In this document: piece by piece, positions 24,454 to 27,400 of the stretch
How positions within the stretch are numbered: the first letter of the stretch is position 1
Layout: each line of letters opens with the position of its first letter
NCBI RefSeq assembly: GCF_024223415.1
Contig: NZ_CP100500.1
Source: Escherichia coli
GTDB lineage: Bacteria > Pseudomonadota > Gammaproteobacteria > Enterobacterales > Enterobacteriaceae
Length of the DNA stretch: 64,000 bases
Strand: one strand, 5' to 3'
Program-made: the position numbers

Positions 24454-27400
24454 CCCGGCGATAGTACATTTCTTCTTTCAGGTGACCAAAGAAATTCTCC
24501 ATTACCGCATTATCAAGGCAGTTGCCCTTGCGCGACATGCTCTGCACTAACCCTTTGTCTGCCAGGGCAGACTGATAACTTTTTATCCGGTAATGCCACC
24601 CTTGATCACTGTGGAGCAGCGGTTTTTCTCCTTCTGCAAGGCTTTCCAGCCCCTTATTTAACATGCGCTTCACCAGCTCCTCTGTAGGCCTGCAGGCAGT
24701 TTCCCACGCCACGATTTCCCCGTTAAACAAATCAAGTATCGGGGACAGGTACAGTTTTTGTCCGCCAGCCCTGAATTCGGTGATATCTGTCACCCATTTC
24801 TCACAGGGAGCTTCCGCTTTGAACTGCCGCTGAAGGATATTTTCTGCAGCGAGTCCCATATTTCCCCGGTAAGACCGGTATTTCTTCAGGCGCACAGGAG
24901 ACTTCAGGCCGAGCTGTTGCATCAGTTTTCGCACCGTTTTGCCACTGAACTTAAGACCTCTTTTCTGAAGCTCACAATGGATCCGCCGGTACCCATAACA
25001 TCCCCGGTGTTCATGGAAGATGGAGGCTATGAGCTGTTTCACATCAGCATACTTGTCCTTAGCCTTCTGCAGTGACAGCTGGTAGTACAGCGTGCTTCTG
25101 GCCAGCCCTGCAGCCTTTAACAGGTCAGACTGGCAGTGTCCGCACTTCAGGCTCTGGATGACTTTCGTTTTTTCTCCAGCTCCTGGCGCTTTTTTTCCAG
25201 GAGATGCTCCTGCATGGCTTTCAGATATGCATTTTCTGCGCGAAGATAACGCAGCTCATTCTTCATCTCTTCCGGCGTCATGTTTGCCTCGTTTTCATGG
25301 GTATCATCAGAACGGGTCATGCTTTTCTCCTTCCTGCGCCTGATAAAGGCCTCATTACCAGATTTGCGGTAGCCTTTTATCCAGTTTTTAACCATGTTGT
25401 GGCTGGGAATGTTAAACCGGGCAGCTACCCGGGGTAGAGACTCAGAATGCCCGAGAGCATAAAGAACCACGCAAAGTTTATCTTCAGGAGAATAGCTACG
25501 CTTGTGTCTGCAATCCAGTGCCTGAGGACCGTGAAGAAGAAAAAGATTAATCCAGTGTGAGAGGCTGGTGTGAGAAAGTTGAAAGAGTTTTGCCGTAGAA
25601 ATGATGCCTGCATGACCGGCCAGGTAATGATTTACAGCGGCAAGTTTTACTTCAAATGAATGTTTCATAAACTGCACCTTCAGATGTCAGATTATGTCCA
25701 ACATTTGGGGTGCAGTTCATGGTGCGTCTTATCAGGCCTACGTCAGACAGCGCAATAGCCTGATTTAGCGTGATTTTGTAGGTCGGATAAGGCGTTTACG
25801 CCGCATCCGACATCAACGCCTGATGCGACGCTTAACGCGTCTTATCAGGCCTACCTTAACCGTTAGTTAATTTTTCAAACTCTTCACACCCGGTATCAAA
25901 CCCTTCCATACAGCTCAGGTTCAACCAGTGCAGCGCCTTTTGCTTGTTCTTCTCGATAAAACCTTCTTCACCGTTTAAGAACATCATTCCCGCCCAGTAC
26001 TCGGAATAACCGGTTCGGGAAATTGCAGAGCTGCGTTTGAAATACCAGGTTGCCTTGTCATCGTCGGCCTTAATGCCCACGCCGTTGGCGTAAATCAAAC
26101 CAAGCAGCATTTGGGCATCGACGGCAGAGTCGTTCTCCAGATCTTCCGAGGCGTTTTCTAACAGCGAAATCGCCTTTGGATAATCCGGTTTACCCGCTTG
26201 AGTATTTACCAGAATATGCGCCAGCGTTACTTCACCTTCTTTACTGCCCGCTTGCGCCGCTTTCTCTGCAAGAACTTTTGCTTGTGGATAGTCCAGACTG
26301 ACCGGATTGGTGATTTTGATCTACGCCAACAGCGCGCAGGCATCAGCATCACCGCTGTCGGCGGCTTTCTGTGCCCAATATTCGGCTTTGCTCAAATCGC
26401 CGGAGCTAAACCAGCTGTCGGCAAGAAAATATTGTGCGCGTCGGTCCCCGGCCTCTGCTGCCTTTAAATACTGGCTGCCAGGCTCGGAGTCGTTGGCGTG
26501 GGCAAAGAATGTCAAAAACAACATCAATGCGATAATTTTTTTCATTTTGATAATACGATTGGGTAGGGAGTAACCAGTATAAAGAGTTCGAATGGATAAA
26601 AAAACAGCCTCCGAAAGGAGGCTGTAGAAAGGACTGTATTACGCCAGTGCCGCTTCGCGCAGGCGAGTTTTCAACTTGTTGTACTCGTCAATCACGTACT
26701 GCTCGGCGGCGCGCTGATCGGCGATCGGCTCGACGCGCACGGCGCAGTATTTGTATTCCGGCGTTTTCGTAATCGGGCTTAAGTTTTCGGTAACCAGCTC
26801 GTTACAGGCACCAATCCACCACTGGTAGGTCATATAAATCGCCCCTTTGTTCGGACGATCGCTGACCTGCGCACGGGTGATAATTTTGCCTTTACGCGAG
26901 TGCACCCAAACCAATGCCTCATCTTCAATACCCAGACGTTTGGCGTCTTCGGTATTGATTTGTGCGTAGCCAGGTTCATCCGCCAGCGCCGCCAGTGCCG
27001 CACAGTTACCGGTCATCGAACGGCAAGAGTAGTGACCAACTTCACGCACCGTTGACAGTACCATCGGGTACTCGTCGGTGAGTTTGTCGATTGGCGCTAC
27101 CCAGTCGCAGGTGAAGAACTGCGCCAGACCGTTCGGGGTATCAAACTTCTCTTTAAACAGATAAGAAGTCCCCTGATCGGCATCTGAAGTATCGCGGCAA
27201 GGCCACTGAATGAAGCCCAGTTCGCCCATTTTCTCGTAAGTCGCACCGTAGAAATCCGGGCACAGATGACGCAACTCATCCCAGATCTCCTGGGTGTTGT
27301 TGTAGTGCATCGGATAACCCATACGGGTGGCGATTTCACTGATGATTTGCCAGTCCGTTTTCAGATCCCATTTCGGTTCAACTGCTTTGAAGAAACGCTG

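What the first reader, a model, noticed from the sequence alone, without database searches (positions are those of the whole stretch)
26321..26323. Single amber (TAG) nonsense codon interrupting yjcO
The Sel1-repeat gene yjcO is intact in length (690 nt) but codon 75 is TAG. Hand translation shows the upstream and downstream segments are in the same frame and otherwise read through as one continuous protein. Either yjcO is a recent pseudogene in this strain, or it is expressed only in an amber-suppressor background, or a 74-aa N-terminal fragment (signal peptide plus one Sel1 unit) is the product. The adjacent IS150-mediated inversion may have relaxed selection on it.
Basis: seen in the sequence. 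Interest (0 to 1): 0.5.

Follow-up and report, generated by a model that had tools for sequence, protein, structure and literature searches.

The report
Amber nonsense mutation inactivating yjcO
A single C-to-T change has turned codon 75 (Gln) of yjcO, a conserved E. coli gene of unknown function, into a stop codon, which makes it an ordinary lineage-specific pseudogene and not a special coding device.

Summary
yjcO lies on the minus strand at 25856-26545 (690 nt). Codon 75 is TAG (plus-strand CTA at 26321-26323). Every other codon matches the K-12 YjcO protein.

The ancestral codon is CAG (Gln). None of 5,417 complete RefSeq E. coli genomes carries the TAG. It is still not a sequencing error: four other public data sets with the same haplotype carry it (one NCBI assembly, three read-set assemblies).

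The same C>T also arose independently in an unrelated background. There it is the only difference in 12.2 kb from strain BE2-5.

The mutation cuts the protein after the signal peptide and the first, weak Sel1 repeat. The two strong Sel1 repeats are lost.

The neighbouring insertion sequence is IS1397, not IS150. A 31.8-kb inversion between two inverted IS1397 copies is real, but it leaves yjcO and its upstream region intact. The second TAG lineage has no IS1397 at that site, so the link to relaxed selection is unsupported.

Amber-suppressor expression cannot be tested here, because the window holds no tRNA genes.

Verdict: a real, inherited nonsense allele of a gene that experimental evolution shows can be lost in the laboratory. 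Interest is low.

The parts
25856..26545 (-). yjcO reading frame (690 nt including the normal stop), interrupted once at codon 75
   Evidence: Translation. [quoted passage not shown] With Q75 it is identical to YJCO_ECOLI.
26321..26323 (-). Amber codon TAG (codon 75), derived from CAG by a C>T transition (G>A at plus-strand position 26323)
   Evidence: No exact match in 5,417 complete genomes.
26324..26545 (-). Remaining translated part: 74 codons, the predicted truncated product
   Evidence: ORF 26321..26545. The same 74-aa product is called in other assemblies, deposited as SRA14585.1.
26495..26545 (-). Probable Sec signal peptide (MKKIIALMLFLTFFAHA, with predicted cleavage after AHA)
   Evidence: Read directly from the sequence (basic N-terminus, hydrophobic core, A-x-A). 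This is an inference; no signal-peptide predictor was run. One database source calls a fragment of the protein 'putative exported protein'.
26348..26437 (-). First, weak Sel1 repeat (aa 37-66), the only repeat kept upstream of the stop
   Evidence: Pfam PF08238, E=0.01.
25856..26320 (-). Part no longer translated: 154 sense codons plus the normal stop. It holds the two strong Sel1 repeats (aa 143-173 at 26027-26119; aa 181-215 at 25901-26005).
   Evidence: Pfam E=5.5e-5 and 7.6e-6. The first in-frame restart codon is the ATG of the 84-aa ORF 25856..26110.
26604..26625 (-). Terminator-like hairpin followed by a T run, between fdhF and yjcO
   Evidence: the sequence is.
24288..25719 (-). IS1397 copy (1432 bp, IS3 family), inserted in a REP palindromic unit 136 nt downstream of yjcO. 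It is the left end of the inverted segment.
   Evidence: RefSeq annotation of the identical element. Ends and inverted repeats. ORFs.
57520..58951 (+). Second IS1397 copy, inverted relative to the first. It is the right end of the inverted segment.
25720..57519 (.). 31.8-kb segment (yjcO to yjdN) inverted relative to KV7, SCU-316 and other close relatives

Best explanation
yjcO in this strain carries a loss-of-function nonsense allele. A spontaneous C>T transition changed codon 75 from CAG (Gln) to TAG in an ancestor of a small clade. Release factor 1 should end translation there (inferred, not shown). The result would be a 74-aa precursor, or about 57 aa after signal-peptide cleavage, that keeps only one weak Sel1 repeat and lacks the rest of the repeat array. 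No functional YjcO should be made beyond trace read-through. The gene is drifting as a young pseudogene: nothing else in it has decayed yet. The same mutation arose a second time in an unrelated lineage. Given the very large number of sequenced E. coli genomes, that is most simply a chance recurrence of the commonest mutation type at one of the few codons that a single transition turns into a stop.
For: - The TAG is present and the rest of the gene is identical to wild type.
- CAG is ancestral. KV7 and SCU-316 differ from the window at only 3 sites in the 27.7 kb around the gene, and one of them is this site. Outgroup BE2-5 also has G at plus-strand 26323, i.e. CAG.
- None of 5,417 complete genomes has the TAG.
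- The allele is inherited and not an error. The same haplotype with TAG occurs in GCA_900482235.1, ERR1156339, SRR31140989 and SRR36098277. Each differs from the window at 0-2 other sites in 6.7-11 kb.
- The window lineage's other substitutions relative to KV7 look like ordinary neutral divergence: 5 synonymous (one of them unpolarised) and 2 missense, with every polarised change at a G:C pair.
- The stop removes the two significant Sel1 repeats.
- The stop is not conserved, and the window contains no tRNA gene.
- yjcO has no assigned function. It was truncated by a 57.5-kb deletion that swept to fixation in the LTEE Ara+1 population, so it is dispensable in the laboratory.
- Other disrupted yjcO alleles exist in E. 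coli and Shigella. The 84-aa C-terminal ORF, which should be called on its own mainly when the gene is broken upstream, is on 359 contigs.
Against: - yjcO is close to universal: 5,416 of 5,426 complete genomes have at least 80% of it at 95% identity or more. Loss is therefore unusual and may carry a cost in nature.
- The identical mutation in two unrelated lineages could point to a hotspot or to selection instead of chance.
- Nothing here measures the protein, so absence of full-length YjcO is inferred.
Confidence: 0.9

Rival explanations
1. Sequencing or assembly error: the strain really has CAG.
For: No complete RefSeq genome has the TAG. A single-base substitution is the kind of error consensus polishing can leave.
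Against: Four other public data sets with the same local haplotype carry the TAG: one NCBI assembly and three assemblies made directly from read sets. Three of them differ from the window at other sites, so they are not copies of the same record. The window shows no homopolymer indel noise relative to KV7.
Confidence: 0.02
2. The gene is still expressed as full-length protein, either through an amber-suppressor tRNA elsewhere in the genome or through efficient natural read-through. Near-cognate tRNA-Gln would even restore the wild-type Gln.
For: The downstream 154 codons are still fully intact. From general knowledge, near-cognate decoding of UAG in E. coli commonly inserts Gln, and a purine after the stop, as in this UAG-A, tends to favour suppression.
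Against: An intact downstream frame is expected for any young mutation. The clade differs from KV7 by only about 1 site per 10 kb. The window has no tRNA genes, so there is no positive evidence for a suppressor. From general knowledge, suppressor alleles are laboratory artefacts and rare in natural isolates, and basal UAG read-through is about 1% or less. The stop is not conserved in any of 5,417 genomes, so it is not a programmed recoding site.
Confidence: 0.04
3. The recurrence reflects positive selection for losing or truncating YjcO, or a site-specific mutational hotspot, and not drift.
For: The identical C>T at the same codon occurs in two backgrounds that differ at 85 sites in 6.8 kb. 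In the second background it is the only change in 12,225 nt relative to BE2-5. Other broken yjcO alleles are not rare.
Against: The site is not in a Dcm (CCWGG) context (sequence), so there is no obvious hotspot. The collection covers a very large number of E. coli samples; one cited survey alone analysed about 117,000 E. coli genomes. Two independent hits of a G:C>A:T transition at one site are therefore unremarkable. No phenotype is known for yjcO.
Confidence: 0.08
4. The IS1397-mediated inversion relaxed selection on yjcO and so allowed the stop.
For: The inversion is real and one end lies 136 nt from yjcO.
Against: The breakpoint is downstream of the gene. The fdhF-yjcO intergenic region and the gene move together. 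KV7 and six other relatives have IS1397 at the same site with an intact CAG gene. The second TAG lineage has gltP directly downstream of yjcO with no IS1397 in between.
Confidence: 0.03

Closest known systems
Lineage-specific nonsense pseudogenes of E. coli and Shigella, including other disrupted yjcO alleles
   Same: A single point mutation inactivates an otherwise intact core gene and is inherited by a small clade. Fragments of yjcO are already deposited from many E. coli and Shigella genomes, and this exact 74-aa product is deposited as SRA14585.1.
   Different: Nothing essential. The only particular feature is that the same codon was hit twice independently.
Classical amber mutations read by supE/supF-type suppressor tRNAs in laboratory K-12 strains
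   Same: A CAG>TAG change is the textbook origin of an amber allele. A Gln-inserting suppressor would restore the wild-type protein.
   Different: There is no evidence of a suppressor here: no tRNA genes in the window, and the closest relatives are isolates from animals, people and food.
Programmed stop-codon recoding, such as the UGA-selenocysteine codon of the neighbouring fdhF
   Same: An in-frame stop inside an otherwise continuous reading frame. fdhF, immediately upstream, has a conserved in-frame TGA at 28367-28369 and is annotated as a single 715-aa product in relatives.
   Different: The fdhF stop is conserved in the relatives. The yjcO TAG is absent from 5,417 genomes. From general knowledge, E. 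coli has no system for decoding UAG as an amino acid.
IS1397, an IS3-family element that inserts into REP/BIME palindromic units
   Same: Both copies are 1432 bp and sit inside split REP units, at gltP/yjcO and at yjdM/yjdN. This matches the published target specificity cited (Clement et al. 1999, PMC94167). The gltP-yjcO spacer is a known BIME.
   Different: In this strain the two inverted copies have recombined and flipped the 31.8 kb between them. This is context only and is not the cause of the stop.

Membership tests
[quoted passage not shown] | Orthologous sequence and length (229 aa) | tested here: met
   With Q75 the sequence is an exact match to YJCO_ECOLI. The DNA is 99.9% identical to annotated yjcO genes.
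[quoted passage not shown] | Conserved position between fdhF and gltP | tested here: met
   fdhF lies immediately upstream. In relatives gltP lies downstream. Here gltP has been moved away by the IS1397 inversion.
[quoted passage not shown] | Sel1 repeats detectable | tested here: met
   Pfam PF08238 at aa 37-66 (E=0.01), 143-173 (5.5e-5) and 181-215 (7.6e-6). No NCBIfam model passes its cut-off.
[quoted passage not shown] | Uninterrupted reading frame | tested here: not met
   TAG at codon 75. The locus is therefore a pseudogene of the family and does not encode a functional member.
Pseudogene by nonsense mutation | Premature stop relative to intact orthologues, with the ancestral sense codon identified | tested here: met
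   CAG in KV7, SCU-316 and BE2-5. None of 5,417 complete genomes matches the 81-nt TAG-centred probe exactly.
Pseudogene by nonsense mutation | Loss of the full-length protein | not testable with these tools
   This needs proteomics or a western blot.
Programmed read-through or recoding site | The stop codon is conserved among orthologues | tested here: not met
   No exact match to the TAG-centred probe in 5,417 genomes.
Amber-suppressed gene | A suppressor tRNA allele is present in the same genome | not testable with these tools
   The window contains no tRNA genes, and the rest of the genome is not available.
   The identical element in KV7 and SCU-316 is annotated as an IS1397-family transposase. 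It is 1432 bp long and sits in REP units. No direct alignment to an IS150 reference was run.

The most novel reading that the evidence does not exclude
The same Gln75 amber mutation in two unrelated E. coli lineages is not chance. It would mark either selection for shutting off, or strongly down-tuning, the periplasmic Sel1 protein YjcO in some niche, with trace Gln read-through leaving a little wild-type protein, or a previously unnoticed mutational hotspot.
Probability: 0.07. Interest if true: 0.35.

Novelty: already known. Interest (0 to 1): 0.08.

Why it matters
It matters little. It is a clean example of a young pseudogene in a core gene of unknown function. It adds to evidence that YjcO can be lost, at least by some natural lineages. 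For annotation, the locus should be marked as a pseudogene instead of being called as two small ORFs of 74 and 84 aa, as automatic callers have done. The only mildly useful lead is the independent recurrence of the identical mutation. That could be tested cheaply across public genomes, and it might give a first hint about when YjcO is a liability.

Tried and rejected
- Exact-allele search in 5,426 complete E. coli genomes found none with the TAG. I considered 'unique to this record, hence possibly an error' and rejected it once the exact-product look-up found the allele in other assemblies.
- Many contigs in that look-up end exactly at codon 74 with a wild-type CA/C (L010-L013, L019-L023). I first wondered about a breakpoint hotspot. 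I rejected that as a selection artefact: an exact-length look-up returns any contig that happens to end there. Of the 131 index blocks listing this product, 94 have a longest carrying contig under 2 kb.
- A chemical-mutagenesis signature was considered, because all differences from KV7 looked like G:C>A:T. After polarising with outgroups, 5 of 7 derived changes are G:C>A:T, one is G:C>C:G and one is G:C>T:A, and site 33922 is derived in KV7 instead. This is compatible with the normal spontaneous spectrum, so I did not pursue it.
- NCBIfam gave no family above its cut-off.
- The promoter scan found no convincing sigma-70 site for yjcO between the fdhF terminator and the start codon. This was left open.
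- The literature search found no functional study of yjcO.
- I found no way with these tools to fetch the tRNA genes of the same genome, so the suppressor idea stays untested.

Full report
**Observation**

The reading frame at 25856-26545 on the minus strand is 690 nt long. It translates into a sequence with one internal stop at codon 75, which is plus-strand CTA at 26321-26323, read as TAG on the coding strand. If Gln is put at position 75, the 229-aa sequence is an exact database entry named Sel1-repeat-containing protein YjcO, YJCO_ECOLI.

**Ancestral state and rarity**

- The gene is present at 95% identity or more, and at least 80% coverage, in 5,416 of 5,426 complete RefSeq E. coli genomes. 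The best matches differ from the window by exactly one base.
- An 81-nt probe centred on the TAG has no exact match in any of 5,417 genomes.
- The closest relatives are KV7 and SCU-316. Between window positions 24288 and 52000, KV7 differs from the window at only three sites, and one of them is 26323 (window A, relatives G). On the coding strand that is TAG against CAG.
- The outgroup BE2-5 also has CAG.
- The change is therefore a derived C>T transition, Gln75 to amber.

**The allele is real**

An exact look-up of the 74-aa product found it in other public assemblies. Four of them have the window's haplotype:

| Data set | Differences from the window outside the TAG |
|---|---|
| GCA_900482235.1 | 0 in 6,976 nt; 1 in 10,976 nt |
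| ERR1156339 | 0 in 6,720 nt |
| SRR31140989 | 2 |
| SRR36098277 | 1 |

All four carry TAG. Three of them differ from the window elsewhere, so they are independent genomes of a small clade. The allele is inherited and is not a consensus error. Other hits of that look-up (L010-L013, L019-L023) are contigs that simply end at codon 74 and read CA or C at codon 75. They are an artefact of looking up an exact length.

**Independent recurrence**

GCA_029947465.1 and GCA_029904165.1 also have TAG at codon 75, in a background that differs from the window at 85 sites in 6.8 kb. That includes a site 6 nt upstream of the mutated base. Over 12,225 nt, this second haplotype differs from strain BE2-5 at one position only, the same C>T. 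In this lineage gltP follows yjcO directly, with no insertion sequence between them. The mutation therefore arose at least twice. The site is not in a Dcm context. Given how many E. coli genomes are public (one cited survey covers about 117,000), a double hit by the commonest mutation type needs no special explanation. I could not test this formally.

**Consequence**

- Pfam finds Sel1 repeats at aa 37-66 (E=0.01), 143-173 (5.5e-5) and 181-215 (7.6e-6).
- The N-terminus, MKKIIALMLFLTFFAHA, looks like a Sec signal peptide. This is read from the sequence and is an inference.
- The stop leaves a 74-aa precursor with the signal peptide and the one weak repeat. Both significant repeats are removed.
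- The first in-frame restart codon is the ATG of an 84-aa ORF at 25856..26110. It has no obvious ribosome-binding site and would lack the signal peptide.
- An intrinsic-terminator-like hairpin separates fdhF from yjcO.
- On the same strand, only a REP unit and IS1397 lie downstream, so a polar effect on another gene is not expected.
- That the truncated product is non-functional is an inference. No protein data exist here.

**Context**

The element 136 nt downstream of yjcO is IS1397, not IS150. The identical element in KV7 and SCU-316 is annotated as an IS1397-family transposase. It is 1432 bp long (24288-25719) and sits inside a split REP unit. That fits the published specificity of IS1397 for palindromic units of BIMEs, and the gltP-yjcO spacer is a known BIME.

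A second, inverted copy lies at 57520-58951. KV7 has both copies, at yjdM/yjdN and at gltP/yjcO, but with the 31.8 kb between them in the opposite orientation. All close relatives share KV7's arrangement. The window's strain therefore carries an inversion produced by recombination between the two inverted IS1397 copies, unless this is an assembly choice.

The inversion carries yjcO together with its upstream region. Seven relatives with IS1397 at this site have an intact gene, and the second TAG lineage has no IS1397 there. The suggested link between the inversion and relaxed selection is not supported.

**Background divergence**

Across the 64-kb window, nine single-copy sites differ from KV7:

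- One of them, site 33922, is derived in KV7 instead of in the window.
- Five are synonymous, one of which could not be polarised.
- Two are missense: crfC P>L and phnL S>L.
- One is the yjcO nonsense change.
- All seven that polarise as derived in the window lie at G:C pairs.

This is what ordinary recent divergence looks like. It also explains why the part of yjcO beyond the stop is still perfect: there has been no time for further decay.

**Alternatives**

- Programmed recoding is excluded by the lack of conservation. Contrast the conserved in-frame TGA of the neighbouring fdhF, which is annotated as one 715-aa product in relatives.
- A suppressor background cannot be tested, because the window holds no tRNA genes. 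From general knowledge it is unlikely for a lineage whose relatives are isolates from animals, people and food.
- Trace near-cognate read-through would insert Gln and recreate the wild-type protein at a very low level. This is a reasonable expectation from general knowledge, not a finding.

**What is known about the gene**

No function is assigned. A missense change in C43(DE3) had no detected effect on toxicity escape. In the LTEE Ara+1 population a 57.5-kb deletion that truncated yjcO swept to fixation. Fragments of yjcO from other E. coli and Shigella genomes are common in the databases. Loss is tolerated in the laboratory and happens repeatedly in nature, even though the gene is nearly universal.

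**Verdict**

This is a real, inherited, ordinary amber nonsense allele that makes yjcO a young pseudogene in a small clade. It is a known kind of event, and the allele is already deposited. The only mildly notable point is the independent recurrence of the identical mutation. Interest is 0.08.

Noticed in passing
window 24288-25719 and 57520-58951; segment 25720-57519: Two inverted 1432-bp IS1397 copies, each inside a split REP unit, flank a 31.8-kb segment (yjcO to yjdN). The segment is inverted relative to KV7, SCU-316, O78 strain 3, NCTC10444, NCTC9112, S51 and GPEC1446, which have the same two IS sites. The likely cause is homologous recombination between the IS copies, or an assembly orientation choice.
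   Followed up: partly
window 28367-28369 (minus strand), within fdhF 26639-28786: In-frame TGA splitting fdhF into 139-aa and 559-aa ORFs. From general knowledge this is the known selenocysteine codon 140. Relatives annotate a single 715-aa product.
   Followed up: no
window 54823-54928 (phnD-phnE intergenic): The window has roughly 80 extra bases of repeated REP-like sequence relative to KV7, seen as overlapping BLAST segments and clustered mismatches. This is copy-number variation of a BIME.
   Followed up: no
window 48799: A lineage-specific G>A on the plus strand changes the last codon of phnL (TCA>TTA, Ser>Leu). It lies one base upstream of the overlapping phnM start codon, so it might affect translational coupling.
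   Followed up: partly
window 21757: Lineage-specific missense change in crfC (CCT>CTT, Pro>Leu).
   Followed up: no
L004/L014 and L006/L016 (GCA_029947465.1, GCA_029904165.1), locus position 6223 / 10223: The identical CAG>TAG at yjcO codon 75 occurs in an unrelated E. coli background. It is the only difference in 12,225 nt from strain BE2-5, so this is an independent recurrence.
   Followed up: yes
window 25570 and 57669 (inside the IS1397 copies): The two IS1397 copies differ from their KV7 counterparts at one internal site each. In principle this could map the crossover point of the inversion.
   Followed up: no
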